A stretch of DNA of 41,801 nucleotides from Actinomycetota bacterium (GCA_046590855.1 JBKJTJ010000180.1:1-41801), one strand, 5' to 3'; shown: positions 12,452 to 34,975, counted from the stretch's first letter. Notes: generated by a model not told the origin, from the letters alone. Numbers and translations are program-made.

Positions 12452-15400
12452 TGGCCAGGGTCGCCAACAGCTGGTGGTTCCGTGCCGAGGCGATGCGGTT
12501 GGACTGGACCGGTCAACTGCGCCAGCGGATCCAGCTCGGCCAGGGAGTAGACGACCACGACGTCGAGCGGGTGCGCCGCCGCGGTGGCGACGTGCACCTG
12601 TGGTGGGCCTGTGCCAAGGACATCGGTGTGCCACGTGAGCCGTTCACGGTCTGGAGGCGCTCGCCGGGCAGGACCCGGCGGGTCAAGCACACGACGTCCG
12701 GTGACAGCCAGGGCACGCTGATCCGCTGGGGCGCGGTCGAAGCGGTCACCATCGAGGTCACCCTGAGGCCGCAGACGGCGTCCGCCGGCTCGACCCTGCT
12801 GGCGTATCGCGGCGCGGGCACGCTGTGGGACGCCGTGGGTGCGGCCACGACGCCGGGCGGCGGCGACGGCCCACGGGTCGTCGTGGTGCGCTGCTCCGGA
12901 GCGACCAGCGCGCGGCTGGTCAACGGCACCGTGGTGTCGGTGCGGATCGAGACGCTGACCGACGCGGTCAACGACCCGTCGTGGCTACCGCTCGAGGTGG
13001 TCGGACTGCCCGTCGAGCAGCCTTGGCCCGGCAGCGACTACGACACCCGCGAGCAGGGGTTGGTGAGCGCGCCGCTGCCGCCCGCCGAGGCCGCGGTCGA
13101 CCGGCTCCGGCGCGGGACCCCGCCGCTCGGCTGGCCCGCCGTCACCCCGGCCGGCCACCTCGCCCCGCCGTGGGTGGACGCCGACCCCTACGGCGTGGTC
13201 AAGGAGGTGCAGGCCCTGCTGCTGCCCGAGATCGCGTCGATGTACGACGTCGGCACCCCAGAGCCGCGGCAGCACCTGCTCGAGTCGCTGCGTACCGTCG
13301 ACGGCCCGCGACAGGGCTCGCGGACCTCGAGCCTGGGTACCACCGCGGTGCTGCGACCGTTCTCGCTGCTGGCCTTGCCGGCGCAGACCGACCCCCTGAT
13401 GAACCTCGCGACGGGGTTCGGCGCCACCTACTTCGTCGACTCCGGTGACCGCCCGGACGCCTCGATCGGCGGCAGCGACCTGATGGTGACGGCGACCTGG
13501 CGCCGGCCGCCCGCACCGCGTCGCGGCAAGGTCGAGCTGGCCGCGTTCGCGCCGCAGGTCGGCCCGCTGTCGGCCGTGCCGGCCCCGACCAACCTGACGG
13601 CGAGCCGCAGCGGGCTCGTCGGGCCGGCCACGGCGGACCAGCCCTGGCGCGAGAGCGTCCACCTGTCGTGGGACCGGCTGCCCACGACGGCGGCCCTGGG
13701 TCGCGTGGGTGCGGGCACGCTCGCGCGGTACCCCAGCGGGTCGGCCCAGGCGGTGTCGCTGGCCCCGGCGCGCGACGCCGGCGGCGAGCGGCCGCTGACG
13801 CTGTCGCCGGACGGGCCCCCGGATACACCCGGTGCCTCGCGGGTCGCGTTCGTCGACGGTGGGGTCGAGATCCCGGTGCTGAGCGGTGGACGGGACGTCG
13901 GTTACGCGGTGTCCGTCGTCGACGTGCACGGCCTGTGGTCGGCCTGGCGCGACGTCCACTACGTCGGCGACGAGCCAGGCCCTTTGCCCCCCAGGCTGAT
14001 CGGGCTCGACCTGACGACCACGTACGCCGGCTCCACCACCTGCCCGGCGAACCTGGCCCTCGAGGTGGCGCTGGACTGGACCGAACGCACGCCCACGACC
14101 CTGCAGGTCGTCGCGCTGTTCTACCCGATGACCGGCGCCTCGTCGGTGCCGCCCGCGGGTCTCGACCCGTCGACCGCGATGCCGTCGGGGTGCTTCCGCC
14201 GTGACCTCGGGCTGACCTTCGCCGGCGACGTCCCGACCGGTGTGGGGTGCACCGTCACCACCTTGGGCCCGGACGGCGAGCACGCGATGGACCCCGGGCC
14301 CTCGCAGGGCGACGGCGGCCGGCGCTACCGGATGCTCGGCCCGGTGCCGTCGCTGGACTTCACCACGGCCGGACGGTGGGGGGTGCAGGTCTGGCTGCGC
14401 AGCACGCTGGCGGTGGGGTCCAGTCCGACTGAGTACGCGCCCGACACCGCGCACCCGGCCAGGGTCAGTGCGGCCAGTCCCGTTCCGGTGCAACCGATCC
14501 CGCCGCCCGCGCCACCCGGGGTCCCGCTCGGCAGCACGCTGGACGCGAGGGGCTGCTCGCACGTACGCGTGCACTGGTCGCTGCCCGCCGGTGGCGACGT
14601 CCGCACCTGCGTGGTGTGGGAGGTGGCCGAGACCAGCCTGCGCCAGCGTGCGGGCCTCGTCTCGCGCGCACCCGACACCGACTCGCCGGGCGTGCGGCTG
14701 GCCGCCCTGTGGGCCGCGTACGACGCGTTGCCAGCGGCCAAGCAACGGGCCGCGTTCCGTCGGGTGGCCGAGCTCGCCGGCACCGAGCGCTCGCTGGACG
14801 TCCCGCTGCCCAAGGGCTCGACCGACATCCACCTGTTCACGGTCACCACGCAGTCGGCGTCCGGCATCGAGTCGCCCTGGCCGGGCCCTCCGACGTCCGG
14901 GCACCTGCACCTGCAGGCCGCCATCGCCCCGCGGCTGCGCACCCCTACTCAGCCACTCGCGCGCGCTGCGGTGCAGGACGACGGGTCGGTGACGATGTCA
15001 CTGATGAGCGCCAGCACCGTTCCGGTGCAGCAGTTCCAGCTCTACGCGACCCGGTCGTTCGACGCAGCGCGCGACCGCGAGAGCATGGGCCCGCCGCTCG
15101 CGACGGTGCCGGTGACGGCCACCCCGACCGCGACGGACCCGCTGATGGGCTCGCCGATCTACCAGGCGAGCTGGACCGGGACGCTGCCCGCGTCGTGGGA
15201 CGCCTGGTACCTGCGTGCGGTCGCGGTCCCGGTGGCCACCGTTCCTGTCGAGGGCGTGCGCGGGCTGCACTCACCCGCGTCCGAGATCACCACTCTCACC
15301 GTGCTTCCTGCCGGGTCCGACCTCGAGCCGCTCAGCGCCCAGCTGTGGGGCACGGACCACCGCGGGGTGGTGGCGCGCTCATCGACGAGCGCGCCGGCGC

Positions 15401-16158
15401 GGGCCACGGCCGCCGGCTCCCACCGGGTGTCGGCGCTGATCGGTGCTGCGCCGGACGTCGTCCCGCAGGCGAACCTCGAGGACCTGCCTCAGACGGCAGG
15501 CACCACACCGCCCTCGTCCACCGCGAGCCGGATCGAGCGTGGTCCGCGCGCGGCCGGCCGCTCGCCGCTGGTGCTGTGGCTGACCCGGCCGGTCGCGGCC
15601 GACCCGGTGACGGTGGTGCTGCGGCTGACCGACCCGCTGGGGCGGCTGGTCGAGCAGACGGTGACCGTCGCCGGCTGGGTTCCGCCGCCGCCGTGGACCC
15701 TCGAGCTGTCGACCGCCGCGACGCGGGCCACGGGTGTGCTCATCGGGCTGGACACCGACGCGCCGGCCGGCGCGGGCGCCGGTGTCACGATGCGCGTCCG
15801 CGCGGTGAAGTCGCGCCGGTTGCCGCTGCCGGCTGCGCTGACCATCACCGAGCCGGCGCCCGTGTCGATCGACCGGATCAGGGTGCAGCCGCCGCCGCTT
15901 CGTCGCAGCGTCGACCCGCCGGTCGTCGTCACGCCGTGGCGCGGGTCGTCGGCGCTGGACCAGACCTTCGTGCTCGCCGACCTGCCGCGCGGCCTGCCGG
16001 TGTTCGCGAACGACGGCCAGATCCACGCCGTCCGCTGGCGCGGGCCGTTCGCGAGCGCCGCCTACGCGGTGTGGGTGCCGTTCGCGGCGCCGTTCTCGGC
16101 CGAGGTCACCCTGGCAGGGCCGGACGGTCAGAGCGTGACGGCGTCAGTCGTGGTGTGA
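12451..16158 (+). CDS. Large protein of unknown function (about 1235 aa), beta-rich with Ig/FN3-like segments, translationally coupled to the giant ORF
   Basis: ATG 12451-12453 overlaps the upstream stop TGA 12449-12451 (TGATG). A 3.7-kb open frame with G/C-rich third positions. Segments such as 'VHWSLPAGGDVRTCVVWEVAE' look like beta-sandwich modules. No catalytic or secretion motif recognised. An alternative GTG lies at 12433. Confidence 0.8.
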   Translation: MARVANSWWFRAEAMRLDWTGQLRQRIQLGQGVDDHDVERVRRRGGDVHLWWACAKDIGVPREPFTVWRRSPGRTRRVKHTTSGDSQGTLIRWGAVEAVTIEVTLRPQTASAGSTLLAYRGAGTLWDAVGAATTPGGGDGPRVVVVRCSGATSARLVNGTVVSVRIETLTDAVNDPSWLPLEVVGLPVEQPWPGSDYDTREQGLVSAPLPPAEAAVDRLRRGTPPLGWPAVTPAGHLAPPWVDADPYGVVKEVQALLLPEIASMYDVGTPEPRQHLLESLRTVDGPRQGSRTSSLGTTAVLRPFSLLALPAQTDPLMNLATGFGATYFVDSGDRPDASIGGSDLMVTATWRRPPAPRRGKVELAAFAPQVGPLSAVPAPTNLTASRSGLVGPATADQPWRESVHLSWDRLPTTAALGRVGAGTLARYPSGSAQAVSLAPARDAGGERPLTLSPDGPPDTPGASRVAFVDGGVEIPVLSGGRDVGYAVSVVDVHGLWSAWRDVHYVGDEPGPLPPRLIGLDLTTTYAGSTTCPANLALEVALDWTERTPTTLQVVALFYPMTGASSVPPAGLDPSTAMPSGCFRRDLGLTFAGDVPTGVGCTVTTLGPDGEHAMDPGPSQGDGGRRYRMLGPVPSLDFTTAGRWGVQVWLRSTLAVGSSPTEYAPDTAHPARVSAASPVPVQPIPPPAPPGVPLGSTLDARGCSHVRVHWSLPAGGDVRTCVVWEVAETSLRQRAGLVSRAPDTDSPGVRLAALWAAYDALPAAKQRAAFRRVAELAGTERSLDVPLPKGSTDIHLFTVTTQSASGIESPWPGPPTSGHLHLQAAIAPRLRTPTQPLARAAVQDDGSVTMSLMSASTVPVQQFQLYATRSFDAARDRESMGPPLATVPVTATPTATDPLMGSPIYQASWTGTLPASWDAWYLRAVAVPVATVPVEGVRGLHSPASEITTLTVLPAGSDLEPLSAQLWGTDHRGVVARSSTSAPARATAAGSHRVSALIGAAPDVVPQANLEDLPQTAGTTPPSSTASRIERGPRAAGRSPLVLWLTRPVAADPVTVVLRLTDPLGRLVEQTVTVAGWVPPPPWTLELSTAATRATGVLIGLDTDAPAGAGAGVTMRVRAVKSRRLPLPAALTITEPAPVSIDRIRVQPPPLRRSVDPPVVVTPWRGSSALDQTFVLADLPRGLPVFANDGQIHAVRWRGPFASAAYAVWVPFAAPFSAEVTLAGPDGQSVTASVVV

Positions 16159-16740
16159 ACCGGGGGTCCTGATCCCGTCGAGGACGAACCCGAGCAGCCG
16201 CTGGTTCTGCTCCAGGGTGCCGCCGCGGGCCATGCACATCCCGCCGACCAGCTGCATCAGGTCGACGGCGTCCAGGTCGGCGCGCGCGGCACCGCCCGCC
16301 TGGGCCCGGGCGAGCACCGAGCCGGCGGCCCCCGTGATGCTCTCGCGCAGCTGGATCGCGAGGTCGGGGCTCTTCTCGAACGCCTCGTGCAGCTCGGTCA
16401 GCAGGGTGCGCTTGGCCTGGGCGTACCGGACGAAGCCCTCGAGCCAGGCGACGAGCGCCGGCCACGGCTCGGTCGTTGCGGCGAGGTCGGCGGCGAGCGT
16501 GACGAGCCCCTCGACGTCCTCGCGGTAGACCGCCTCGACCAGGTCGATGCGCCGCGGGAAGTGGCGGTAGAAGGTGCCGGCGCCGACGTCGGCGGCCTTG
16601 GCGATCTCTTCGACGGTGGCCGCGCTGCCGCGGGCGGCGAACACCTCACGGGCGGCCTCGATCAGCCTCGCTCGGTTGCGGTGGGCGTCGGCGCGCAGCG
16701 GCCTAGCCGCCACCGCCGTCCGCTCGCGCGCCTCGCCCAT
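16144..16740 (-). CDS. TetR/AcrR-family transcriptional regulator (198 aa from ATG at 16740)
   Basis: N-terminal HTH 'RNRARLIEAAREVFAARGSAATVEEIAKAADVGAGTFYRHFPRR'. Divergent from an MFS gene. The upstream part of the ORF to 16896 would overlap the MFS start and lacks family features. Confidence 0.9.
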   Translation of the reverse strand: MGEARERTAVAARPLRADAHRNRARLIEAAREVFAARGSAATVEEIAKAADVGAGTFYRHFPRRIDLVEAVYREDVEGLVTLAADLAATTEPWPALVAWLEGFVRYAQAKRTLLTELHEAFEKSPDLAIQLRESITGAAGSVLARAQAGGAARADLDAVDLMQLVGGMCMARGGTLEQNQRLLGFVLDGIRTPGSHHD

Positions 16741-16755
16741 GCCCAGCCCTTTCGG

Positions 16756-16805
16756 TTGCAGAAGCGGAGTGATCCTCCGTATAGTTCCGGAAGAAGCCTC
16801 CGCTT
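16756..16805 (+). promoter_or_regulatory. Putative sigma-A-type promoter of the MFS gene, with palindromes in and around the spacer that are probably the TetR operator
   Basis: TTGCAG (16756-16761), an 18-nt spacer, then TATAGT (16780-16785). The spacer contains the palindrome CGGAG-TGATC-CTCCG (16765-16779). An outer inverted repeat is AAGCGGAG (16762-16769) / CTCCGCTT (16798-16805). Confidence 0.45.
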
Positions 16806-16841
16806 GGTCCCTCACCTTAGTCCCCGCCGAGAGAAGCAGCC

Positions 16842-18347
16842 GTGTCCTCTGACACCACCACCGCTCCCTGCGCCCCGCCGGACGCCGCGAGCGCACCTCG
16901 CCGCCTCCGCCGTCCCGCCCACGCGACGATCGTGCTGGCCGTGATCCTGACCTGCCAGCTGATGGTCGTGCTGGACGCCACCATCGTGAACGTCGCCCTG
17001 CCGCAGATGCAGCGCGCGCTCGGCTTCTCGCCCGCCGGCCTGTCGTGGGTGCTGAACGCCTACACGCTGACGTTCGGCGGCCTGCTGCTGCTCGGCGCGC
17101 GGGCCGGCGACCTGCTCGGCCGCCGCCGCACCTTCATCGCCGGCATCGCCGTGTTCTCGCTCGCGTCGCTGCTCGGTGGTTTCGCGCCGACCAGTGGGCT
17201 GCTGCTCGCGGCCCGTGCCTTGCAGGGCGTCGGAGCGGCGCTGGCGGCGCCGTCGTCCCTGGCCCTGCTGACGACGATGTTCAGCGCGCCTCGCGACCGG
17301 GCCCGCGCGCTCGGCCTGTTCACCGCCGTGTCGGTCAGCGGTGGGGCGCTCGGCCTGATCCTGGGCGGCACCCTCACCCAGTGGGCGTCGTGGCGCTGGG
17401 TCATGTTCGTCAACGTGCCGATCGGCGTCGTCGTGATCCTCGTCGGCCTGGCGGTGCTGCCCGAGACCGGACGCCGGTCGGGCACCTTCGACCTGCCCGG
17501 TGCCGTCTTCTCGACGCTCGGCATGACCGGCCTGGTCTACGGCTTCGTCCGGGCGGCGACCGCGGGCTGGGCCGACGTCCTCACCCTGTCGTCGTTCGCC
17601 GCAGGCGCTGTGCTGCTCGCCGCATTCGTCGTGGTCGAGAAGCGCACCGCACAGCCGATCACGCCGCTGTCGCTGTTCGCCGACCACAGCCGCACGATCG
17701 CGAACGTCGCACGCGGACTGTTGTTCGCCGGCATGTTCGGCATGTTCTTCTTCCTCACCCAGTTCCTGCAGGACGTGCTGGGCTACAGCTCGCTGGCCAC
17801 CGGCTTCGCGTTCCTGCCGATGCCGGTGACGGTCTTCGTCGTCTCGCAGGCGAGCAGCCGGGTGCTGATGAACCGGGTCAACGGCAAGGTGATGATGCTG
17901 GTCGGCATCGCCCTGGCGGTCAGCGGGTTCACGTTGGCCAGCACGCTCGGCCCGGACTCGACGTACCTGCGCGTCGTCGCGAGCCTACTGCTCTTCGCCT
18001 TCGGCAACGGACTGTCGTTCATCCCGCTCACCCAGGCCGCGCTCGACGGCGTGCCCGCACGGGACGCCGGTGCGGCGTCCGGCCTGGTCAACGTGACCCA
18101 GCAGCTGGGTGGCACGCTCGGCGTCGCGGTGCTCGTCACCGTCTTCGGCCACTACGCAGCAGCGGCCGGGGTGCTCGAGGGAGCGTCGGCCGTCGCCCAG
18201 GCGCACCACGTCTTCACCGCCGGTGCCTCACACGCCTTCGCTGCCTCAGCGCTGTTCCTCGTCGCGGCCTTCGCCCTCGTCGCCGCCGGCGTCCGGGGCT
18301 CGGGCCAGCACGCGCCCGCACCCGCCGCGGATCACGTCGAGGTCTGA
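16842..18347 (+). CDS. DHA2 (EmrB/QacA-type, 14-TMS) MFS drug-efflux transporter
   Basis: 'LDATIVNVALPQMQRALGFS...WVLNAYTLTFGGLLLLGARAGDLLGRRR' is the canonical DHA2 N-terminus. 501 aa with many hydrophobic segments. Divergent from the TetR gene. Confidence 0.9.
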   Translation: MSSDTTTAPCAPPDAASAPRRLRRPAHATIVLAVILTCQLMVVLDATIVNVALPQMQRALGFSPAGLSWVLNAYTLTFGGLLLLGARAGDLLGRRRTFIAGIAVFSLASLLGGFAPTSGLLLAARALQGVGAALAAPSSLALLTTMFSAPRDRARALGLFTAVSVSGGALGLILGGTLTQWASWRWVMFVNVPIGVVVILVGLAVLPETGRRSGTFDLPGAVFSTLGMTGLVYGFVRAATAGWADVLTLSSFAAGAVLLAAFVVVEKRTAQPITPLSLFADHSRTIANVARGLLFAGMFGMFFFLTQFLQDVLGYSSLATGFAFLPMPVTVFVVSQASSRVLMNRVNGKVMMLVGIALAVSGFTLASTLGPDSTYLRVVASLLLFAFGNGLSFIPLTQAALDGVPARDAGAASGLVNVTQQLGGTLGVAVLVTVFGHYAAAAGVLEGASAVAQAHHVFTAGASHAFAASALFLVAAFALVAAGVRGSGQHAPAPAADHVEV

Positions 18348-18385
18348 CCCGCCGTGCAGAGCCCGGCATCTCGCGCTTCTGCGCG

Positions 18386-18802
18386 GTGAAGTCGTGGACG
18401 GTCGTCGGACGCAGTTGACAGTACTTTCGAGGCCGGACCGCCCGGTGCACGCACCGACGGCGACCATGGGTTCTATCTCTGCCCCAAGCCCAGCGGGCCT
18501 GCGCCGCACTTCCATAGCTCGCTCGCCGAGGCGTTCTACGTCCTCGCCGGCACGGTGCGGCTGTACGACGGTGAGCAGTGGGTGGACGCCGGCGCCGGCG
18601 ACTTCCTGCACGTGCCGGCCGGCGGTGTGCACGGGTTCTGCAAAAGTCCGGTGAGCCGGCGTCCATGATGATCCTGTTCATCCCCGGTGCGGCACGGGAG
18701 GCGTCCTTCGAGGGCACCTTCGAGATGGGCCGCACCGGCGTCCGGCCCAGCGACGCAGAACTGGCCGACTTGTACGCCCAGCACGACACCGTCTGGGTGT
18801 GA
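18386..18802 (+). pseudogene. Cupin-domain gene remnant, frameshifted with an unclear or damaged 5' end
   Basis: The cupin core 'GPAPHFHSSLAEAFYVLAGTVRLYDGEQWVDAGAGDFLHVPAGGVHGF' is read in one frame (about 18420-18638). The expected continuation '..KSGEPASMMILFIPGAAREASFEG...HDTVWV*' is in the -1 frame, ending at 18802. The break is near 18636-18645. No ATG or GTG opens the core frame after the stop at 18387. Confidence 0.55.
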
Positions 18803-18819
18803 GGGTGGAAGCGGTGCCG

Positions 18820-21800
18820 CTAGACCGCCACGGCTCGTGAGCTCAGCAGGACGGCGGGCGGGATCTCATGCTCGAGCTGCCAGGTGATGGCCATCGGCCG
18901 CTCACCGCGGTGCTGCACGTAACGCACAGGGCCGAGCAGCAGAAACGGCGCCCCGGCGCCGAGCGGGTTCGAGGGGGCATCACGCACGAAGAGCAGCACC
19001 TGGGTTCCGAGCCGCTCGTGGTGGACGTAACGGCGCCCGACGGGGGAGTCCGACGTGGTGGCGTTCTGCGACTCCCAGTGGAAGAGCGACTCGGACAGCG
19101 CGTAGTCCCGGTACATGGTGGTGGGCGAGAAGTCGCGCTCGGACTTGTGCAGGTTGACCATCAGCGCGTCTGTCTGGCTGGCTTCAGCCCAGGCAACTCC
19201 GGTGATGTTGCCCCGTGCGGACCGATCGAGCGAGGCCCAGTCCAGGGCAGCCAGCAGCTCCTCACGGCGGTAGTGGGCGTGCGCCGCCAAGGTCACGTCG
19301 CCAATCAGGGGCCGCGCCACATGCTGGGCCCGGCTCAGGCCGAGCGCGATGACCTGCTCGAGCTCGGCACAGACGGCCGGCTGTGTGCGCAGGGCCGCGA
19401 GCCCGGCCTGATAGCTGTGGTGACCGCCACCGTTGGGCCAGACCGTGAAGAACAGCATGCGGGCGTATCGCTGCAGTCGGGCGGGAAGCTCGGCGTACGG
19501 CGGCGCCGTCGGTGACAGCAGCTCGGTGTACGCGTGCGCTCGATCGACGTCGTCGACATGGACGAAAGCACTGACCCGTCGGAGCAGGTACTCCTCGCCC
19601 GGGACGGCCGCGGGCCAAGGCAGGTCGGCGTCGCGAACCAGCCGAGTCCAGCTGCTCTTCGCCGCGTAGATCTCGGCTAGCTCGGCGCCGCTCGCCTCGA
19701 GATAGACCGCCACCGAGGTGGTCGCGATCGAGCGGACATCCGCCACCCGCTGCTTGCGGGAAAGGCGCAGGTGAGCCTTGATCTGCTCGAGCACCTGTTG
19801 CTCAGTCACTCGGTCGAGCACGATCTGAGAGCCAGCCGGCAAGAAGGGGAAGCCGCTTGAAACCTGAGCAGCGAGCTCGTTGCGCCGTGAACCGGTCATC
19901 GCCGTGTACCGCATATCGAGGCGGTACTCCCGCCGTTGCTGACCCACGAAGTCGAGCACCGTCAAGACAGACTTGTCGTGGGTGCGGCGCAAGCCACGAC
20001 CCAGCTGCTGCAGAAAGATCGTGGCGGATGCCGTCGGGCGCAGAAGTAGCAGTGTGTCGACGGCCGGCAGGTCGAGGCCCTCATTGAAGAGATCGACGGC
20101 GAAGATCGCGTTGACCCGCCGATCCTTGAGCGCCTGCAGTGCCCCGGCCCGCTCTTCTCGGGTGGAGTCGGCGTCAATCGCAACTGCGGGGACACCAGCC
20201 TCGGTGAACGTCCGGGCCATGAATGTTGCATGAGCCTTGCTCACGCAGAATCCCAGCGCACGCATCGCCCGAGCGTCAGATACTTTGTCCCGCAGTGCTC
20301 GCAGCACAATCCGCACCCGCGCGTCGTTGCCGGTGTACAGGTTGCTCAGGCTTGCGACGTCGTAGTCTCCGCGCCTCCACTCCAGTCGCGAGAGATCGGT
20401 GCCGTCGGCGACGCCGAAGTAGTGGAAAGGACAAAGCAGATCAGCGGTGAGGGCGTCCCAGAGTCGTAGCTCTGCGCTGATGTGGCCATCGAAGAACTCT
20501 TGGGCGATGTTGACGCCGTCTGCGCGCTCCGGGGTGGCGGTGAGGGCGAGCAGCTCCTGCGGCTTCAGGTGCTGGATCAGTCGCCGATAGCTGGCCGACT
20601 CCATGTGGTGCGACTCATCGAGCACGACGACGTCGAAGTGGTCGGCGGGGATTTTGTCGATCCCGTAGGCGGTCAGCGACTGGATGCTGGCGAAGACGTG
20701 CTGCCACCGCTCCGGTCGTCGCCCGTCGACGTACAGCTCACCAAAGGCCCCGTCGCCCAGTACGTTGCGGTACGTGGACAGGCTTTGTTCGAGGATCTCG
20801 CGGCGATGGGCGACGAAGAGCAACGTCCGGTCGCCGAGTCGCCGGTAGTCCAGTGCGGCGATGACGGTCTTGCCGGTGCCGGTGGCTGCGACGACCAGGT
20901 TCCGATGTCGTTCGTGTACCCGTCGCTCGACGTCGAGCTGCTCGAGCATCTCGGCTTGGTGCGGGAAGGGTCGCACCTCCAGACCGCTGAGTACGGTTGG
21001 TGCTGCCCCTGTCGCCCCCCGAGCCGCCGCGATCGCGTCGTCGAGACGGTCGCGGTCGCGGGCCGGGTCGTAGCGCTCGAAGCTGGGGTCGGCCCAGTAG
21101 GAGTCGAAGGTGGCACGGAACTTGTCGAGCAGTGTCGGTGTGCTGCCAGCCGCAAGGCGCACGTTCCATTCCAGGCCGTCCAGCAGCGCCGCGCGACTGA
21201 GGTTGGAGCTGCCGATGTACGCGGTGTCGAAGCGGCTGTGGCGGTTGAACAACCAGGCCTTGGCGTGCAGCCTGGTGGACGTCGTCTGGTAGTTGATCCG
21301 CACCTCAGCGCCTAGCTGGGTGACCAGGCGGTCAAGCGCCTGCCGCTCGGTAGCTCCCATGTAGGTCGTCGTCAGCACGCGCAGCGGGCCACCGCGTTGC
21401 TTGAGCCGGTGCAGTGGCAACTCGAGAATGCGCAGCCCGCTCCACTTCACGAACGCGCACAGCAGATCCACCGAGTCCGCGCTGTCGAGCTCGGCAGCGA
21501 TTTCGGTGCCCATGCTCGGCTCGCCACGGGCGTTGGTCAGCAAGGCCGGCTGTGACAGGGGTGTCTGTGGGCGGGTGTCCAGTGCCCACACGCCCGGCGC
21601 GATGGGACGGCGGAGCGCCACGAGATGCCTTGGGCCAGGCTCAATCACTTCGTCAGTGCCAAGGTGTGCGAGCACCTCGTTGGCGAAGCGCACCCGCTCT
21701 TCGGGCCTCTGTCTCGCCAGGGCGCGGTTGACGGCGTCGGCGAGAAACCCGGCGAGCTGTTGCGCGGACTCGGCATCTTCGATCGTCGCTGTCTCGGCAA

Positions 21801-21876
21801 TGAGGTCGAGCTCGGTCAGCGCCTGCTGGAGGGAGGCCGTCAGCACTGTCTCGTACAGGCCTTCCCTCAACGACAT
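18820..21876 (-). CDS. Single-polypeptide fusion of a PLD-like (HKD) nuclease domain, an SF2 (ResIII/DExH) helicase and C-terminal DUF3427 (1018 aa)
   Basis: HKD motif 'RLHAKAWLFNRHSRFDTAYIGSSNLS'. Helicase motif I 'AATGTGKT', II 'VVLDESHH', III 'LTATPER', VI 'QQLGRGLRR'. C-terminus 'YRDYALSESLFHWESQNATT...VLLFVRD...FLLLGPVRYVQHRGERPMAITWQLEHEIP' is typical of DUF3427. Confidence 0.9.
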   Translation of the reverse strand: MSLREGLYETVLTASLQQALTELDLIAETATIEDAESAQQLAGFLADAVNRALARQRPEERVRFANEVLAHLGTDEVIEPGPRHLVALRRPIAPGVWALDTRPQTPLSQPALLTNARGEPSMGTEIAAELDSADSVDLLCAFVKWSGLRILELPLHRLKQRGGPLRVLTTTYMGATERQALDRLVTQLGAEVRINYQTTSTRLHAKAWLFNRHSRFDTAYIGSSNLSRAALLDGLEWNVRLAAGSTPTLLDKFRATFDSYWADPSFERYDPARDRDRLDDAIAAARGATGAAPTVLSGLEVRPFPHQAEMLEQLDVERRVHERHRNLVVAATGTGKTVIAALDYRRLGDRTLLFVAHRREILEQSLSTYRNVLGDGAFGELYVDGRRPERWQHVFASIQSLTAYGIDKIPADHFDVVVLDESHHMESASYRRLIQHLKPQELLALTATPERADGVNIAQEFFDGHISAELRLWDALTADLLCPFHYFGVADGTDLSRLEWRRGDYDVASLSNLYTGNDARVRIVLRALRDKVSDARAMRALGFCVSKAHATFMARTFTEAGVPAVAIDADSTREERAGALQALKDRRVNAIFAVDLFNEGLDLPAVDTLLLLRPTASATIFLQQLGRGLRRTHDKSVLTVLDFVGQQRREYRLDMRYTAMTGSRRNELAAQVSSGFPFLPAGSQIVLDRVTEQQVLEQIKAHLRLSRKQRVADVRSIATTSVAVYLEASGAELAEIYAAKSSWTRLVRDADLPWPAAVPGEEYLLRRVSAFVHVDDVDRAHAYTELLSPTAPPYAELPARLQRYARMLFFTVWPNGGGHHSYQAGLAALRTQPAVCAELEQVIALGLSRAQHVARPLIGDVTLAAHAHYRREELLAALDWASLDRSARGNITGVAWAEASQTDALMVNLHKSERDFSPTTMYRDYALSESLFHWESQNATTSDSPVGRRYVHHERLGTQVLLFVRDAPSNPLGAGAPFLLLGPVRYVQHRGERPMAITWQLEHEIPPAVLLSSRAVAV

Positions 21877-22064
21877 GCCGGCAGCTTGTCACGTGGTCCC
21901 CCCGAATCGTCGTGAAAACGGCACAACGGGCAGCCGTGGGCAGCATGTCCGGAACGTGCCGCAGCGACCTGCGGGACTGCCCCTTGCCTAATCGTCCGTT
22001 TTGGGCAGGATGGGGCCCGTCCCCGGAGCACATCCAGCAGGGGGGACCTCACCGAGGAGGATCC

Positions 22065-23702
22065 GTGCGATCAACGAAGCTCGCTCCACCGGCAGCCGCC
22101 CGCTGGCCCCGGCGTCAGCGTCTGGGCCGGACGATCACCGTCGCCGCCGTCGCGTGGCTGTTGGCGAGCCCGACCGCGACGGCCGGACCCGTGCCGGCAG
22201 CGGCCACCCCGCGGGTGACCGCGTCGACCACCGCGGCAACGACCACACCGATGTCCACGACGAGCATCGAGGGGACGAAGATCCAGGGTCCGATCCCGGT
22301 CACCTCGACGTCGTACCCGTTCGGCGGCGCCGCGCACACGCGGGTGCCCGAGAACCTGCGCAAGATCGGCTACGTCGAGGAGGAGTACTTCGTCAGCGGC
22401 CTGGCGAACGTCTACACCTGGCCCAAGCCGGGGCCGGCCGTGGTCCGGACGGCGAACGCCCCGTACACGACCCGGATCCTCGTCCGCCGGCCGGCGAAGG
22501 CCGCGCGTTTCAGCGGCAACGTCGTCGTCGAGCCGCTCAACCCCTCGAACCTGTTCGACCTCAACCTCGGCTGGGGTCTGATGCACGACCAGCTGATCCG
22601 CAACGGTGACATCTGGGTGGGCGTGACCATCAAGCCGGTGTCCATGCAGACGCTCAAGACCTTCGACCCCGTTCGCTACAAGGCGATGGCGATGGACAAC
22701 CCACTGCCGCTCGACGACCCGCGCAACTGCGCCACCGTCCCGTCCGACAGCTCGCGCACCACCGAGAACGGTCTGGCGTGGGACATCTACACCCAGGTCG
22801 GCCAGCTGCTGCGCGCGAAGTCGGCCAAGAACCCCGTCGCGTACGTGGGCCAGCGGATCCGCCATCAGGTCAAGCTGTACGGGTTCGGGTACTCCCAGAC
22901 CGGGGGCTACATGTACGACTACATCAACGCCGTCCAGCCGCGCGTAGTGCAGCAGACCGGCCGGGACGTGTACGACGGGTACATCGTCGCGGTGGCCGGC
23001 GGCAACTTCGCGGGCATCTACCCGATCAACCAGTGCGAGGCGGTGCCCGCGGTCGACGACCCGCGTCGCCAGTTCTCGAACGTCGGGACGCCGATCATCC
23101 ACGTCATGTCACAGTCGGACTACCTGCGCGGGATCACCGCGCGCCGTCCGGACAGCGACTGGCCGACCGATCGCTACCGTCAGTACGAGATGACCGGTGC
23201 CGGGCACGCGACACCCACCGAGCTGAACTACGCCGCACAGCCTGCCGACATCATCAAGGGCGGACGCTCCGTGCCCCCGGCGGAGTGCAACGAGGGCCCG
23301 CGCAGCCGGTTCCCCAGCCAGATCTTCTTCGACGCGATGATGCGCAACCTCGACCAGTGGGTCCGCCGGGGCGCCGCGCCGCCGTACGGGTCGCCGATGG
23401 TGGTCCAGAACGGCGAGCCGGTGCTCGACCGCTTCGGCAACGTGCTCGGCGGCCTGCGCTCGCCGTACGTCGACGTGCCGACGTCGACCTGGTACGGCAG
23501 CTCGACCGGAGCCTCGTTCTGCTTCATCGCCGGCCACGAGGTGCCGTTCAGCACGGCCCTGCTGAAGCAGCTGTACGTGAGCCACACCCTGTACGTGCAG
23601 GCGGTCAGGCGGGACGTCGACCGGCTGGTCAAGGCGCGCTTCATCACGGCCTACGACGGCCGGATGCTCGTCGCCGAGGCGCAGGCGGCGCAGGTGCCGT
23701 GA
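22065..23702 (+). CDS. Secreted protein, possibly an alpha/beta-hydrolase-like enzyme (family not securely recognised)
   Basis: GTG 22065 lies 4 nt after a strong SD, GAGGAGG (22054-22060). The N-terminus 'RWPRRQRLGRTITVAAVAWLLASPTATA/GP' is signal-peptide-like (possibly Tat-type RR). 545 aa with G/C-rich third positions. The function call is weak. Confidence 0.7.
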   Translation: MRSTKLAPPAAARWPRRQRLGRTITVAAVAWLLASPTATAGPVPAAATPRVTASTTAATTTPMSTTSIEGTKIQGPIPVTSTSYPFGGAAHTRVPENLRKIGYVEEEYFVSGLANVYTWPKPGPAVVRTANAPYTTRILVRRPAKAARFSGNVVVEPLNPSNLFDLNLGWGLMHDQLIRNGDIWVGVTIKPVSMQTLKTFDPVRYKAMAMDNPLPLDDPRNCATVPSDSSRTTENGLAWDIYTQVGQLLRAKSAKNPVAYVGQRIRHQVKLYGFGYSQTGGYMYDYINAVQPRVVQQTGRDVYDGYIVAVAGGNFAGIYPINQCEAVPAVDDPRRQFSNVGTPIIHVMSQSDYLRGITARRPDSDWPTDRYRQYEMTGAGHATPTELNYAAQPADIIKGGRSVPPAECNEGPRSRFPSQIFFDAMMRNLDQWVRRGAAPPYGSPMVVQNGEPVLDRFGNVLGGLRSPYVDVPTSTWYGSSTGASFCFIAGHEVPFSTALLKQLYVSHTLYVQAVRRDVDRLVKARFITAYDGRMLVAEAQAAQVP

Positions 23703-23740
23703 CCCGCCAAACGGCGTCGCACCACTGACGCCATGGCGAC

Positions 23741-23775
23741 CGGACGGTCTCGTGGGCTTTGCACGAGGCCGTCCG
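23741..23775 (+). terminator. Stem-loop downstream of the hydrolase-like gene (candidate intrinsic terminator, no U-tract)
   Basis: CGGACGGTCTCGTG (23741-23754), loop GGCTTTG, then CACGAGGCCGTCCG (23762-23775). This gives a 14-bp stem with one G-U pair, starting 39 nt after the stop at 23702. Confidence 0.45.
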
Positions 23776-24562
23776 GTGCGTCAGATCAGCCGCTCGCGCG
23801 GGGCCGACACCAGACGGCGGCGACGCGTGCACGAGCTAAGGCGCCGGCGTCTTCTCCCCGAGGCTGGCGCCACCTGGGACGACGTTGCTCGGGTGGTCCT
23901 GCCAGGTGACCACCGGATGGTCCGGGGTCACCCGCGGCGATCGCAGAACAAGGCGCGCTCGTGCAGCCGCGCCGTGTGCCGAAGGCCAGGCGCGAGCAGC
24001 CGAACCGCGAGTTGCTGGCCCAGCAGCACGCCGCCTTCGCGGCTGGCTGACGTAGCCCTTGCCCGGGTGGGTGGCCAGACGTCTCACCCCGGCCACCCAC
24101 GCTCTCTACGTGGTGGTGGCTCGACCCGGTCATCGCCGAGCTGGGGTTGACGTCGATGGCGCGCGGACGCCATGCGCTCGCGACCGGGCAGCTGCTGAGC
24201 AAGACCCAGGCCATCGAACTCGTGCAGGCCTCCCCGTGGCTGGTCGAGCGGCTGCGGGCTCGCCGCCGCGGTGAGCCCGTTCGGTTGCCGCGACTGCGCA
24301 CCGCCCGCGTCGCCTGGGCCGACGCACGACGTAGCACCGGGCGGGCCAGGCGGTGGGCGTCGGGCGAGAACTAGTGGTGTCTCCGCTCTGGCTGCCTGGT
24401 TCTCGACCGCCTGGAGGGTGACTCGTCCTTGGCCGCGTGGACCGGTTCGCTGCCCAGGTCCCGGTGCGCACACCGAAGTCCGGGACATCCGTCCCGCCCA
24501 AATCCTGGTGCGGCCGATGAGCGCGATGACGAGCGGGGCGACGGAGCAACCCCGTGGCCGAT

Positions 24563-24613: not shown

Positions 24614-25891
24614 TCACCCGTCGGGTTGCCACAGGGGTGGCAGGGGTGTCCCGCGTCGCCTGGTCCAGACGGGTGGGTCGAACATCGGTCGGCCGGTGGG
24701 TTCGTCGATCCGGACTGACCACCGGTCGTCGTGCTGGTCGTCGTGGATGACGCGTTGGTGGTGGTACCGGCACAGCAGCACCAGGTTGGCCAGACTCGTC
24801 GGTCCGCCGTCGGCCCAGTGCTGGATGTGGTGGGCGTCGCATCGCGAGGCCGGGGTGTCACAGCCGGGGAACGCGCAGTTCTGGTCCCGGACCATGAGGG
24901 CGGCCCACATTGCGGCGTTGACGGTGCGGGTGCGTCGTCCGACGTCCAGCACCTGACCGAGCGGCCCGACGGTAACCGGGGTGATCGTCGCGTCGCACGC
25001 GAGGCGTCGGGTGGTCTCCCCGGAGATGACCCCGCCCCAGTCCAGGGACGACCCGCCCGGCTCACCCGCCAGGGTCCCGGCGCCGGTGACGACCGACAGG
25101 TGCGCGCCCGGGCGGCGGACGTCAGGTGCCTGCTGGCAGTCCAGGTAGTGGCGCGACACCTCCACCAGGGCGTCCAGGCGGCGCCGGGCCGCGGTGCGCC
25201 CGTCGATGAGCCCGTCCGGGGTCGGCGGTCGTGGGGCGGACAGCGGTTCGAGCGCCGCCTGGATCACGGCCAGGGACTCGGGGTCCAGGTCACCGCGGGC
25301 GATCCCGGCCCCGCACAGGGTGGACGCGAAGGTGACCCCGGACCGCTCACGTTGCTCGGCCTCGTCCCGCGCGACCCCGTGCGGATCGACCCGCGACGCG
25401 AGGTACCGCCCGGCGCGGGCCAGCTGCACCGGGTCAAGGGCCCGGGCGTGCTCGACCAGGGTCGCCTCACCCGCGAGCCGGACGTCCTCGGACAGGGCGC
25501 TGGGCAGGTCGGTGATGACCTTGGTGATGACCTGCGCCTGACCGATCCCGATCGTCCCAGCGGCGATGGCGTGCGCCGTCGCCTCGCAGGTCGAACGCAG
25601 GGCACTGGCCGTGGCCACAGCGCGCGCTGCCTCGGACGGGGACACCAGGCACGTGCCGCGCAGGAACGCCTTCGTCGAACCCGCCCCGATGACCTGGGCG
25701 GCGCCGCGGGCCTGGACCTCACCGACCCGGCGCAACCACTCACCCTCGGCCTGGTCGATCAGCCGACGAAGGTCAGCGACGTCGGTCAGCAGGGACCCGG
25801 CATCGACACCGTGCAGGTCCTCGAACTGCAGCCCCGAGACCGCGTCGCGCACGGCGACGAGCGCCTCGCTCAGTGCCCCGGTGCTGTCCAT
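24614..25891 (-). CDS. DUF222 / HNH-endonuclease family protein (REP13E12-like)
   Basis: C-terminal HNH signature 'CAFPGCDTPASRCDAHHIQHWADGGPTSLANLVLLCRYHHQRVIH'. The long helical N-terminal region is typical of DUF222. An in-frame TGA lies immediately upstream of ATG 25891. Confidence 0.9.
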   Translation of the reverse strand: MDSTGALSEALVAVRDAVSGLQFEDLHGVDAGSLLTDVADLRRLIDQAEGEWLRRVGEVQARGAAQVIGAGSTKAFLRGTCLVSPSEAARAVATASALRSTCEATAHAIAAGTIGIGQAQVITKVITDLPSALSEDVRLAGEATLVEHARALDPVQLARAGRYLASRVDPHGVARDEAEQRERSGVTFASTLCGAGIARGDLDPESLAVIQAALEPLSAPRPPTPDGLIDGRTAARRRLDALVEVSRHYLDCQQAPDVRRPGAHLSVVTGAGTLAGEPGGSSLDWGGVISGETTRRLACDATITPVTVGPLGQVLDVGRRTRTVNAAMWAALMVRDQNCAFPGCDTPASRCDAHHIQHWADGGPTSLANLVLLCRYHHQRVIHDDQHDDRWSVRIDEPTGRPMFDPPVWTRRRGTPLPPLWQPDG

Positions 25892-31100: not shown

Positions 31101-31531
31101 GCCAGCACCTGCTGGCAGAAGCCGTGCGTCGTCGTGACGGTCGCGGCATCGAAGTCGGCGAGGGCCACCTGCACGCGCCGGTGGCGACGCGCGACCTCGT
31201 CGGCCGCAGCGTCGGCGAGATGGGCCAGGACCCGGTCGCGCGGGTCGACCTCCCGGGGCCGGGCCAGCCCCTCGCGCACGCTCACCAGACGCTCGCGCAC
31301 CCGCTCGCGCAGCTCGCGGGTCGACTCGCGGCTGAAGCTGACGACGAGCAGCTCGTCCATGGTCGCCACCCCCTCGGCGACGTACCGGGCGACGAGTGCG
31401 GCGATGGTGAAGGTCTTGCCGGTGCCGGCACTGGCCTCGAGCACCGTCGTGCCGGTGGGCAGGGGCCCGAGCATCGCGAAGCGCTCCGGGATCGGCTCGC
31501 CGAGGGGCAGGGGGAGTCGGTTCTCGCTCAT
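28172..31531 (-). CDS. recB: Exodeoxyribonuclease V beta subunit RecB (UvrD-like helicase plus PD-(D/E)xK nuclease), 1119 aa
   Basis: 'LEASAGTGKTFTIAALVARY', 'VLVDEFQDTDPVQW', C-terminal nuclease motif 'GSIDAVLRL...YLVVDYKTN'. ATG 31531 overlaps the recC stop (ATGA). Confidence 0.92.
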   Translation of the reverse strand: MSENRLPLPLGEPIPERFAMLGPLPTGTTVLEASAGTGKTFTIAALVARYVAEGVATMDELLVVSFSRESTRELRERVRERLVSVREGLARPREVDPRDRVLAHLADAAADEVARRHRRVQVALADFDAATVTTTHGFCQQVLAALGTAGDHDPGAQLVEGIGDLVREVADDLYLRKWGVVGAGAPELTIEQFRALATDVAVRDPGTLLVPAPAESDPTTPHGLRTRIASAVRAEVEARKRRLHLFDYDDLLSRLDGTLQADVTGTVAVQRLRDRYSIVLVDEFQDTDPVQWSILRIPFHGHRTLVLIGDPKQAIYAFRGADVHAYLSAREVAGAVHTLPTSFRSDAALVAGLGAVFGGAALGDPRIRVGPVEAVHQGRLVEVDGTPAPVRLRVLPREGLAAPGKLLPTQVAVDSIVRDVAAEVVTTLRGARLNPRDGTPARCVVPGDIAVLVRTNKQAEQVSAGLRAAGVPVVVTGRTSVFSTPAAEQWQLLLEALEQPHRTARVARLALGPFAGLPAAQVADLDDGSVTELALQLRVWSRLLDERGVAAVFEAVSAERALQPRLLALDGGERLLTDLRHLAQVLHEVAQHEQRGLSALVTWLRARRDEAVRDAGTLERSRRLDSDAAAVQVITVHTSKGLEFPVVMMPFGWNRWPGNEPSTAAFHDERGRVRDVGGPTGPGWAAHVAQGKAEEADDDLRLAYVGLTRAMGHLITWWAPTANTVTSALHRLLLHRDPVTVAPTKIPVPADSVALQMFQDLATDHLAVEVIEPRAVGRYEPPAQKSAALSLATLDRALDITWRRTSYSALTAAAHDQRMGSEPEVAQKDDETDSDVAEAGGALDAALRALPSAWDQLPGGAGFGTLVHAALEQIEDAADEAAVRSAVALNVARSAPGTDVGMLTDALVTALRTPLGALARGVSLAELSRGDRLPELDFELPLAGGDEPLALRPVLSGLVPLWRKHCSTGVLSGYADELATLDPAPLRGYLTGSIDAVLRLRVDGAPTYLVVDYKTNRLGGYVEPLTAWHYRHEAMQTAMIEAHYPLQALLYGVALHRYLRWRQPGYDPDIHLGGSLYLFLRGMSGPGVVAADGSVPGVFAWRPPSALVVGASDLLAGTT

Positions 31532-34854: not shown

Positions 34855-34975
34855 CCTGTCCCCCTCCGCCACCTGCGGCGGCCACCCTACTGAGCGCGCT
34901 GTGCGGCGGGCCTGAGCGGTGGGCCACGGCCGCGATGACGTCACGGGGACGCCCTCGCCAGGGCAGGATGGGGGG

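What the first reader, a model, noticed from the sequence alone, without database searches (positions are those of the whole stretch)
18820..21876. Stand-alone PLD(HKD)-nuclease / SF2-helicase / DUF3427 fusion in a lower-G+C pocket: candidate single-gene defence system
Seen in the sequence: one 1018-aa ORF combines a single HKD motif ('LHAKAWLF...IGSSNLS'), a complete DExH helicase core and the DUF3427 C-terminal region. A single HKD implies dimerisation for nuclease activity, as in Nuc/BfiI. Hand counts of five 60-nt lines inside the gene gave about 60-65% G+C. A hand-counted line in the giant ORF gave about 75%, though another there gave only 65%. Codons ending in A/T are visibly more frequent in this gene, which suggests horizontal acquisition. 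The left neighbour is a decayed cupin gene, and its stop is only 17 nt from this gene's stop. Inference: a nuclease plus translocase plus putative nucleic-acid-sensing domain is the logic of restriction-like and anti-phage effectors. The role of DUF3427 is not established.
Basis: partly seen in the sequence, partly recalled or inferred. Interest (0 to 1): 0.7.

Follow-up and report, generated by a model that had tools for sequence, protein, structure and literature searches.

The report
Known SauUSI-type methylated-DNA restriction enzyme
This gene encodes an ordinary, apparently intact member of a well-studied family of one-protein restriction enzymes (SauUSI of Staphylococcus, ScoA3I of Streptomyces) that recognise methylated cytosine in incoming DNA, pull the DNA through an ATP motor and cut it. 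Calling it a defence gene is right, but it is not a new kind of system.

Summary
ORF 18820-21876 (-) encodes 1018 aa with one PLD/HKD nuclease domain, a complete SF2 DExH ATPase and a C-terminal DUF3427. It is the lowest-G+C 3-kb stretch of the window (66.8% against 72.6±1.7% for the other genes).

The architecture is not a new candidate. It is the SauUSI/ScoA3I family of Type IV modification-dependent restriction enzymes:
- PADLOC's mREase_IV model matches end to end (1153 bits).
- The SauUSI crystal structure 7CLG is the top match by sequence (E=1.6e-85) and by fold (E=4.7e-34).
- All four catalytic residues mutated in SauUSI are present and invariant in 119 homologues.
- The modelled C-terminal domain matches the SauUSI target-recognition domain first, then other SRA-like methylcytosine readers.
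- No methyltransferase lies in the 41.8-kb window.

The role of DUF3427 is therefore already established.

Relatives number in the thousands and have no fixed neighbour. Two close relatives carry the gene at the same locus, one as a very divergent allele.

The only mildly new point is a conserved ~81-aa N-terminal helical extension that SauUSI lacks. It appears to have been cut from the ScoA3I constructs reported inactive in vitro.

Verdict: a new member of a known kind; interest is low.

The parts
18820..21876 (-). Complete gene for a 1018-aa SauUSI/ScoA3I-family Type IV restriction enzyme (stop codon 18820-18822)
   Evidence: ORF. PADLOC mREase_IV PDLC03659, 1153 bits, residues 86-1016 against model positions 2-942 of 945. 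7clg_A E=1.6e-85 by sequence and E=4.7e-34 by fold.
21553..21876 (-). N-terminal extension, residues 1-108. Three helices (14-22, 34-55, 58-71) are predicted. SauUSI has no counterpart for about 81 of these residues.
   Evidence: hhalign puts SauUSI residue 28 at query residue 109. AF2 pLDDT is 71-91 over residues 1-80. G6, Y8, E9, T13 and L16 are at least 90% conserved in 113 homologues. No Pfam or PDB match.
21007..21552 (-). PLD-family (single HxK) nuclease domain, residues 109-290
   Evidence: PLDc_2 at 155-261. Aligned to the SauUSI nuclease domain.
21169..21267 (-). Catalytic segment H204-x-K206 ... N225 ... E236, equivalent to SauUSI H119, K121, N139 and E150
   Evidence: The alignment to SauUSI is. 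The four residues are invariant in 119 sequences. SauUSI mutagenesis shows all four are essential (PMC3141236).
19897..20979 (-). SF2 DExH helicase-like ATPase/translocase, residues 300-660
   Evidence: ResIII and Helicase_C. Motifs GTGKT, DESHH, TATP and QQLGRGLR. 34% identity to SauUSI over 565 columns that span the nuclease and ATPase domains.
19282..19896 (-). Alpha-helical coupler region, residues 661-865 (the N-terminal part of Pfam DUF3427 falls here)
   Evidence: The AF2 secondary structure is all-helical over about 689-848, with pLDDT mostly above 90 from about residue 710. It corresponds to the SauUSI coupler, residues 618-805.
18823..19281 (-). SRA-like target-recognition domain, residues 866-1018. 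D924 and W934 sit at the positions of the SauUSI pocket residues D858 and W868.
   Evidence: The domain model has pLDDT 88.5. Foldseek returns the SauUSI TRD first (TMq 0.62, rmsd 3.1), then AbaSI, MspJI, KRYPTONITE, SUVH6, TagI, UHRF1 SRA and ScoMcrA.
21877..22064 (.). Divergent intergenic region between the REase start and the Abhydrolase_10 gene. It presumably holds the promoter, which has not been located.
   Evidence: Sequence. Gene calls of the 99%-identical locus L081 give a 188-bp spacer. No sigma-70-type consensus was found.

Best explanation
The gene encodes a stand-alone, ATP-dependent Type IV (modification-dependent) restriction endonuclease of the SauUSI/ScoA3I family, in its 'long' form common in Actinomycetota.

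The mechanism below is taken from SauUSI and inferred for this protein.
1. Two protomers dimerise through their single-HxK PLD domains to form one composite nuclease site.
2. The C-terminal SRA-like domain flips a modified cytosine (most likely 5mC or 5hmC) out of foreign DNA into a pocket containing D924 and W934.
3. Recognition switches on the DExH motor, which translocates double-stranded DNA, forming loops.
4. The nuclease is carried along and makes double-strand breaks. Repeated cycles shred the methylated DNA.
5. The host is spared because its own DNA lacks that modification, so no partner methyltransferase is needed.

Shown here: domain content, intact catalytic and motor motifs, SRA-like fold, full-length homology to SauUSI and to the PADLOC/REBASE Type IV model, absence of a linked methyltransferase, and purifying selection.

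Inferred: activity, dimerisation, ATP dependence and the identity of the modification.
For: - Family models and solved structures. PADLOC mREase_IV PDLC03659 matches at 1153 bits over residues 86-1016, and PDLC03658 at 277 bits. SauUSI (7clg) is the best solved-structure match by sequence (E=1.6e-85). It is also best by predicted fold for the whole protein (E=4.7e-34 over 948 columns) and for the isolated C-terminal domain.
- Catalytic and motor residues. H204, K206, N225 and E236 align with SauUSI H119, K121, N139 and E150, each essential in SauUSI. They are invariant in 119 homologues. Helicase motifs I, II, III and VI are intact.
- Recognition domain. After SauUSI, the next 13 Foldseek hits for the C-terminal domain are all SRA-like readers of modified cytosine. 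SauUSI pocket residues D858 and W868 map to invariant D924 and near-invariant W934 in two independent alignments (pocket defined).
- No methyltransferase. No such domain occurs in any sizeable ORF of the 41.8-kb window.
- Selection. dN/dS is 0.28 against the 99% orthologue and 0.15 against the 75% one.
- Streptomyces member. ScoA3I (Sco2863) restricted Dcm-methylated plasmid about 1000-fold in S. lividans (PMC6765204; PMC3874153).
- No partner gene. 317 neighbours of 72 homologous loci fall into 240 clusters, as expected for a one-gene system.
Against: - No experiment exists on this protein.
- Purified ScoA3I, the nearest studied relative, was inactive in vitro and in E. coli. Its authors pointed to a changed 'D' of HxK(x)4D. 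That position is N211 here.
- However, position 211 is R in 97 of 119 family members and is E in active SauUSI, so it is not a conserved requirement.
- Sequence similarity of the recognition domain to SauUSI is weak: 9.6 bits by phmmer and hhalign probability 88%.
- The counterpart of the methyl-contacting Y831 is ambiguous (W896 or V894), so the modification read could differ.
- The gene is not in a recognisable defence island. Its neighbours are an MFS transporter, a TetR regulator, a hydrolase and recBCD.
Confidence: 0.87

Rival explanations
1. The gene is a catalytically dead or decaying relic, or acts by DNA binding and translocation only. That would parallel ScoA3I in vitro and the DUF3427-PD-(D/E)XK fusions that restrict phage yet show little cleavage.
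For: Purified ScoA3I did not cleave DNA, and the canonical Asp of HxK(x)4D is missing. Position 211 is N here. McaZI-type DUF3427 fusions had little or no endonuclease activity yet restricted T4gt. The adjacent cupin gene is a pseudogene, so the locus does tolerate decay.
Against: The reading frame is intact over 1018 codons. H, K, N and E of the PLD site and all motor motifs are invariant across 119 homologues. dN/dS is 0.15-0.28. Position 211 varies family-wide and is E in active SauUSI. The inactive ScoA3I constructs (945 and 991 aa) were shorter than the 1045-1050 aa annotated for Streptomyces orthologues, which offers another reason for their inactivity.
Confidence: 0.07
2. It belongs to the same enzyme family but senses a modification other than 5mC/5hmC. 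Candidates are N4-methylcytosine, glucosyl-hmC, 6mA or another hypermodified base.
For: The recognition domain shares only about 18-23% identity with that of SauUSI. The residue equivalent to the methyl-contacting Y831 is uncertain. SRA/PUA-like folds have been adapted to several modifications.
Against: The cytosine-specific Asp (D924) and the stacking Trp (W934) are conserved. ScoA3I, of the same long subfamily, restricted Dcm (5mC) DNA. The pocket motifs SPTTMYRDYA and FHWESQN are almost invariant across the subfamily, which argues for one shared ligand.
Confidence: 0.08
3. It is a housekeeping DNA-repair helicase-nuclease (RadD/XPB-like) that works with the nearby recBCD genes and is not a defence enzyme.
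For: After SauUSI, the helicase core's next-best matches are RadD and XPB. recD-recB-recC lie 4.4 kb away on the same strand.
Against: The NCBIfam RadD score is 101.8 bits against a cut-off of 720. RadD has no PLD or SRA domain. The recBCD linkage is not conserved: L001 has no RecD hit and other loci have unrelated contexts. The Streptomyces member is absent from S. lividans, so it is accessory (PMC1934918).
Confidence: 0.02
4. It is the restriction subunit of a conventional modification-blocked R-M system (Type I/III-like, or NgoAVII/CglI-like) whose methyltransferase is encoded elsewhere.
For: It hits ResIII ('Type III restriction enzyme, res subunit'), and weakly hits Type I R-subunit models and RE_NgoFVII.
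Against: All of those hits fall far below the family cut-offs or cover only the helicase core: EcoAI 66 bits against 550, RE_NgoFVII 21 against 23.8. No methyltransferase or specificity subunit is present in the window. The C-terminal domain is an SRA-like modified-base reader, not a B3 or HsdS-type domain.
Confidence: 0.02

Closest known systems
SauUSI (Staphylococcus aureus USA300; PDB 7CLG), Type IV ATP-dependent restriction enzyme
   Same: Same order of domains in one polypeptide: single-HxK PLD nuclease, SF2 DExH ATPase, helical coupler, SRA-fold target-recognition domain (DUF3427). It is 34% identical over 565 columns of nuclease plus motor. All four catalytic residues and the pocket Asp and Trp are conserved. 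It is the best fold match for the whole protein and for the recognition domain. Neither has a linked methyltransferase.
   Different: The window protein has about 81 extra N-terminal residues, predicted as three helices. Its recognition domain is only weakly similar in sequence. The acidic residue at HxK(x)4[D/E] is N211 instead of E126. The counterpart of Y831 is uncertain. PADLOC places the two in separate models: PDLC03659 at 1153 bits against PDLC03658 at 277 bits.
ScoA3I (Sco2863, Streptomyces coelicolor A3(2)), SauUSI homologue of the methyl-specific restriction system
   Same: It is an actinobacterial member of the family. The PADLOC model that fits the window protein best has 945 positions, the length used for ScoA3I. 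Streptomyces orthologues are 54% identical and colinear from residue 6 to 1009. It is an accessory gene, absent from S. lividans. It restricted Dcm+ plasmid about 1000-fold in vivo.
   Different: The Sco2863 sequence itself could not be retrieved here, so identity to it was not measured. ScoA3I was studied as 945-aa and 991-aa constructs, which were inactive in vitro. The window protein and the Streptomyces orthologues (1045-1050 aa) carry a conserved N-terminus beginning G-[LV]-Y-E.
McaZI/YenY4I group (DUF3427 fused to a PD-(D/E)XK nuclease)
   Same: They share the DUF3427 modification-sensing domain, and they restrict 5hmC phage T4gt.
   Different: They have no helicase motor and no PLD nuclease, so they are ATP-independent. 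They are often found next to methyltransferases in defence islands.
BfiI / Nuc (PLD-family nucleases)
   Same: Each has a single HxK motif per chain, and the active site forms across a homodimer. The SauUSI nuclease dimer resembles that of BfiI.
   Different: They have no ATPase and no SRA domain. BfiI is a Type IIS enzyme that is blocked by methylation, not triggered by it.
NgoAVII/CglI (PLD nuclease plus SF2 ATPase restriction enzymes)
   Same: They combine a PLD nuclease with an SF2 helicase-like ATPase.
   Different: The domain arrangement and subunit composition differ. They have a B3-like DNA-binding domain and a cognate methyltransferase. The RE_NgoFVII Pfam hit here is below its cut-off.

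Membership tests
SauUSI/ScoA3I family of Type IV modification-dependent restriction enzymes | N-terminal PLD-family nuclease domain with a single HxK motif and the four catalytic residues (SauUSI H119, K121, N139, E150) | tested here: met
   PLDc_2 at 155-261. H204, K206, N225 and E236 are aligned and invariant in 119 sequences.
SauUSI/ScoA3I family of Type IV modification-dependent restriction enzymes | Central SF2 DExH helicase-like ATPase with intact Walker A, DExH, motif III and motif VI | tested here: met
   ResIII and Helicase_C. GTGKT at 333, DESHH at 420, TATP at 446, QQLGRGLR at 623.
SauUSI/ScoA3I family of Type IV modification-dependent restriction enzymes | Helical coupler followed by a C-terminal DUF3427 target-recognition domain with an SRA fold | tested here: met
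   DUF3427 at 827-1008, 86.9 bits. AF2 domain model with pLDDT 88.5. The top Foldseek hits are the SauUSI TRD and then SRA-like domains.
SauUSI/ScoA3I family of Type IV modification-dependent restriction enzymes | Full-length colinear homology to a characterised member or to the curated family model | tested here: met
   PADLOC PDLC03659 at 1153 bits over model positions 2-942 of 945. 7clg by sequence, E=1.6e-85. 7clg by fold, 948 aligned columns.
SauUSI/ScoA3I family of Type IV modification-dependent restriction enzymes | Flipped-cytosine pocket residues of the recognition domain (SauUSI M829, Y831, F841, I842, D858, W868) | tested here: inconclusive
   D858=D924 and W868=W934 in both alignments, and F841/I842=M906/V907. 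Y831 maps to W896 (phmmer) or V894 (hhalign).
SauUSI/ScoA3I family of Type IV modification-dependent restriction enzymes | No cognate DNA methyltransferase next to the gene | tested here: met
   No methyltransferase domain in any sizeable ORF of the 41.8-kb window. No conserved neighbour in 72 homologous loci.
SauUSI/ScoA3I family of Type IV modification-dependent restriction enzymes | [quoted passage not shown] | not tested
   No multimer prediction was available. Dimerisation is inferred from the single HxK motif and the SauUSI structure.
SauUSI/ScoA3I family of Type IV modification-dependent restriction enzymes | ATP-dependent cleavage of 5mC/5hmC DNA but not of unmodified DNA | not testable with these tools
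   This needs biochemistry or transformation and plaque assays.
RadD DNA-repair helicase | Score above the NCBIfam equivalog cut-off, and the RadD architecture without nuclease or SRA domains | tested here: not met
   NF053632 scores 101.8 bits against a cut-off of 720, over the helicase core only.
Type I / Type III R-M restriction subunit | Family-level match to HsdR or Res, plus linked Mod/HsdM(S) genes | tested here: not met
   EcoAI scores 66 bits against 550, and PRK11448 scores 45 against 729. No methyltransferase in the window.
NgoAVII/CglI-type PLD restriction enzymes | An RE_NgoFVII PLD domain above the Pfam threshold, with a B3-like DNA-binding domain and a separate ATPase subunit | tested here: not met
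   PF09565 scores 21.0 bits against a cut-off of 23.8. The C-terminal domain is SRA-like.

The most novel reading that the evidence does not exclude
The 'long' ScoA3I-type subfamily has a conserved N-terminal three-helix module of about 81-105 aa that SauUSI lacks. Residues 1-108 here begin with the motif G-[LV]-Y-E-x-[LV]-x-T. The reading is that this module is required for activity or control, for example dimer stabilisation or autoinhibition released on target binding.

This would explain why the 945-aa and 991-aa ScoA3I constructs were inactive in vitro even though the gene restricted methylated DNA in Streptomyces. It would also define a mechanistic variant of the SauUSI family.
Probability: 0.25. 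Interest if true: 0.35.

Novelty: new member of a known kind. Interest (0 to 1): 0.15.

Why it matters
It matters little for discovery. The architecture, structure and single-molecule mechanism of this enzyme family are published, and standard defence-annotation tools already recognise this protein.

Two practical points follow.
- This actinomycete lineage is predicted to reject DNA prepared in Dcm+ (or otherwise C5-methylated) E. coli, which matters for anyone trying to transform it.
- The conserved N-terminal extension suggests a simple, testable reason for the unresolved discrepancy over ScoA3I, which is active in S. lividans but inactive as a purified protein.

Tried and rejected
- **Partner gene or operon.** I clustered 317 neighbours of 72 homologous loci and scanned 130 cluster representatives against Pfam and PADLOC. 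There is no conserved partner. Only scattered defence genes appeared (GmrSD in 3 loci, plus a Type I methyltransferase, a Type III REase, JetA/JetD and ZacC). Without a background set I make no claim of enrichment.
- **Island boundaries.** The window has no tRNA. No meaningful direct or inverted repeats flank the gene. No integrase was found.
- **Recent transfer of the gene.** dS against L081 is about 0.018 for the REase and about 0.2 for the MFS and TetR genes, which looked like recent transfer. The sliding comparison shows the same low-divergence pattern over the unrelated GGDEF genes at 400-3200. It therefore reflects general recombination or a MAG mosaic, not something specific to the REase.
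- **Presence/absence among close relatives.** None was seen. The window, L081 and L001 all carry a homologue between the TetR and HNH-DUF222 genes. The sample is too small to call the gene core.
- **Homology of the N-terminal 108 aa.** Nothing turned up in Pfam at E<=1 or in PDB sequences at E<=10.
- **Retrieval of Sco2863.** A second homologue search with the S. misionensis protein returned 120 Streptomyces proteins, none labelled S. coelicolor. Identity to ScoA3I is therefore unmeasured.
- **Promoter and terminator scan of 18300-22300.** No promoter-like site was found, and terminator-like sites were no more frequent than in shuffled sequence.
- **EF-G-like gene dN/dS.** My frame choice was wrong, so those values are discarded.
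Full report
**Observation**

- Pfam finds PLDc_2 (155-261), ResIII/DEAD (301-451), Helicase_C (527-630) and DUF3427 (827-1008).
- The quoted 'LHAKAWLF...IGSSNLS' lies at residues 203-227 and is the only HxK motif.
- Helicase motifs I (GTGKT, 333), II (DESHH, 420), III (TATP, 446) and VI (QQLGRGLR, 623) are intact.

The G+C dip is real but modest. The gene has 66.8% G+C against 72.6±1.7% for 16 other genes, and GC3 of 0.824 against 0.904±0.038. It is the lowest 3-kb stretch of the window.

The left neighbour is a frameshifted cupin whose final frame stops at 18802, 17 nt from the REase stop.

**What it is**

PADLOC's model PDLC03659, 'Type IV methyl-directed restriction enzyme', matches residues 86-1016 over model positions 2-942 of 945 at 1153 bits. 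The sister model PDLC03658 gives 277 bits.

The best solved-structure relative by sequence is 7clg_A, the crystal structure of SauUSI (E=1.6e-85 over 110-661, plus a weak C-terminal stretch). A profile alignment gives 34% identity to SauUSI over 565 columns of nuclease plus motor.

An AlphaFold2 model of the whole protein (pLDDT 80.2) finds 7clg first (E=4.7e-34, 948 aligned columns), and only then RadD and XPB helicase cores.

A separate model of residues 846-1018 (pLDDT 88.5) finds the SauUSI recognition domain first (TMq 0.62, rmsd 3.1 Å). The next hits are AbaSI, MspJI, KRYPTONITE/SUVH6, TagI, UHRF1-SRA and ScoMcrA, all SRA-like readers of modified cytosine.

This is what the SauUSI papers describe: PLD nuclease, SF2 ATPase, helical coupler and an SRA-fold TRD corresponding to DUF3427 (PMC3141236; PMC7913695). 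The Streptomyces coelicolor homologue ScoA3I (Sco2863) is listed among the Type IV enzymes and restricted Dcm-methylated plasmid about 1000-fold in S. lividans.

**Is it likely to be functional?**

The four residues whose mutation kills SauUSI (H119, K121, N139, E150) correspond to H204, K206, N225 and E236. They are invariant in 119 full-length homologues.

The 'D' of the textbook HxK(x)4D is N211 here. That position is R in 97 of 119 family members and E in active SauUSI, so it is not a family requirement.

SauUSI's predicted flipped-base pocket is M829, Y831, F841, I842, D858 and W868.
- Both phmmer and hhalign place D858 on invariant D924 and W868 on W934.
- F841 and I842 fall on M906 and V907.
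- The counterpart of Y831 is W896 or V894, depending on the alignment.

dN/dS is 0.28 against the 99%-identical orthologue and 0.15 against the 75% one.

No methyltransferase domain occurs in any sizeable ORF of the window.

**Most likely mechanism**

This is inferred from SauUSI.
1. A homodimer forms through the PLD domains.
2. The SRA-like domain flips out 5mC or 5hmC.
3. Recognition activates the DExH motor.
4. The motor translocates double-stranded DNA with loop formation and carries the nuclease to the cleavage sites.
5. Repeated cycles shred methylated foreign DNA.

**Surroundings and evolution**

The window holds, from left to right:
- GGDEF/EAL and PAS-GGDEF genes
- an EF-G-like GTPase
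- two giant ORFs without any family match
- TetR
- an MFS transporter
- the cupin remnant
- the REase
- an Abhydrolase_10 gene
- an HNH/DUF222 gene
- recD-recB-recC
- a PAS/GAF-SpoIIE phosphatase
- Kup
- a GNAT
- an AraC/DJ-1 regulator

It is not a defence island.

The nearest public contig, L081 (GCA_966194735.1), has a REase 99% identical in protein and is colinear with the window, except that it lacks the 10.6-kb giant-ORF segment. Divergence between the two is mosaic. It is 1% or less over 400-3200 and over about 18600-23765, and 7-10% elsewhere, so the low divergence of the REase segment is not specific to it.

A second relative, L001, shares the EF-G, TetR (92% aa) and HNH (88%) flanks. 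It has a 75%-identical REase allele (dS 1.17 against 0.19-0.45 for the flanks) and lacks the MFS, cupin and hydrolase genes.

More distant homologues have other contexts:
- The 80% relative keeps the hydrolase neighbour.
- The 72% relative lies beside DUF559 and a DDE transposase.
- The 71% relative lies beside a Mu/Tn7-like transposition module.
- The 66% relative sits among metabolic genes.

Across 72 loci, 317 neighbours form 240 clusters with no recurring partner. A few neighbours are defence genes.

Full-length relatives occur on nine plasmid or chromid records and on three metagenomic 'phage' contigs. Sco2863 is absent from S. lividans.

The family is large:
- 8000 or more hits in the 90% clusters.
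- 344 loci among GTDB species representatives.
- All 150 listed best matches among the 50% clusters score about 600 bits or more. Most of these are about 1020-1060 aa and align from residue 3-6.

**The one feature not discussed in the literature I read**

Residues 1-108 precede the point where SauUSI begins to align; SauUSI residue 28 equals query residue 109.
- The region is predicted as three helices with pLDDT 71-91.
- It has near-invariant G6, Y8, E9, T13 and L16.
- It is shared by the Streptomyces orthologues, which are annotated at 1045-1050 aa.
- It matches nothing in Pfam or the PDB.

The ScoA3I proteins reported inactive were 945 and 991 aa long. The PADLOC model of 945 positions starts at query residue 86. 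On that basis the constructs would have lacked all or most of this module. This is an inference, because I could not retrieve Sco2863 itself.

**Verdict**

The thing is an already characterised kind of enzyme, and the statement that DUF3427 has no established role is out of date.

I class it as a new member of a known kind, with low interest (0.15). The most novel reading still open is a functional role for the N-terminal module (probability about 0.25).

Noticed in passing
window 5571-16165 (ORFs 5612-12451 + and 12433-16158 +): Two very large ORFs (2279 and 1241 aa) have strong coding signal (GC3 0.92-0.94). Neither hits Pfam even at E<=1, and neither hits PADLOC. The whole 10.6-kb segment is absent from the 94-97%-identical relative L081, where the EF-G-like and TetR genes are 217 bp apart. 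The first ORF has an OmpA_C-like 'NRSLSERRRAAM' motif near residue 570.
   Followed up: partly
window 3-5570 and 16166-24105 against L081: Divergence from the closest public contig is mosaic. It is 1% or less over 400-3200 and over about 18600-23765, and 7-10% over 3200-5570 and 16166-18565. dS is 0.015-0.018 for REase and Abhydrolase_10, and 0.18-0.21 for MFS and TetR. This means either recombination between lineages or mosaic MAG consensus.
   Followed up: partly
window 16807-24109 against L001 7229-13164: The segment between the conserved TetR and HNH/DUF222 genes is replaced in the related MAG L001. That genome has a REase allele only 75% identical (dS 1.17 against 0.19-0.45 for the flanks) and different small genes, and it lacks the MFS, cupin and Abhydrolase_10 genes. 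The locus looks like a turnover hotspot.
   Followed up: partly
window ~18400-18802 (+): This is a cupin pseudogene. Both cupin motifs (PHFH...E...G and GDFLHVPAGGVHGF) lie in one frame, there is a frameshift near 18660, and the tail lies in another frame. The same split is present in L081 (63-aa Cupin_2 piece plus 45-aa piece), so the lesion predates the split of the two lineages.
   Followed up: yes
window 24614-25891 (-), breakpoint near 24105-24109: An HNH endonuclease with DUF222 (the actinobacterial '13E12'-type mobile HNH) lies just beyond the point where colinearity with L081 ends and where the DNA match to L001 resumes.
   Followed up: no
window 26304-35316 (-): A recD-recB-recC operon lies 4.4 kb from the restriction gene on the same strand. 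The linkage was not found in the relative checked for it: L001 has no RecD hit within its flanks. Other homologous loci have unrelated neighbours.
   Followed up: partly
L084 4398-9393: The 71%-identical homologue sits next to a Mu-transposase_C / AAA_22 (TnsB/TnsC-like) module and an HTH gene, which suggests carriage on a transposon in that genome.
   Followed up: no
L088 2417-5278 (S. aureus record NZ_CP077890.1, labelled plasmid): The SauUSI gene copy in this record is split into a 664-aa ORF and a 235-aa ORF, and it carries no annotation. This points to a frameshifted (inactive) sauUSI or a sequencing error. The flanking genes look chromosomal.
   Followed up: no
Plasmid hits H23-H25 (Streptomyces plasmids): Streptomyces plasmids carry proteins that match only residues ~680-1006 (coupler plus DUF3427) at 42-46% identity. 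The recognition module is therefore also found without the nuclease-motor part of this protein.
   Followed up: no
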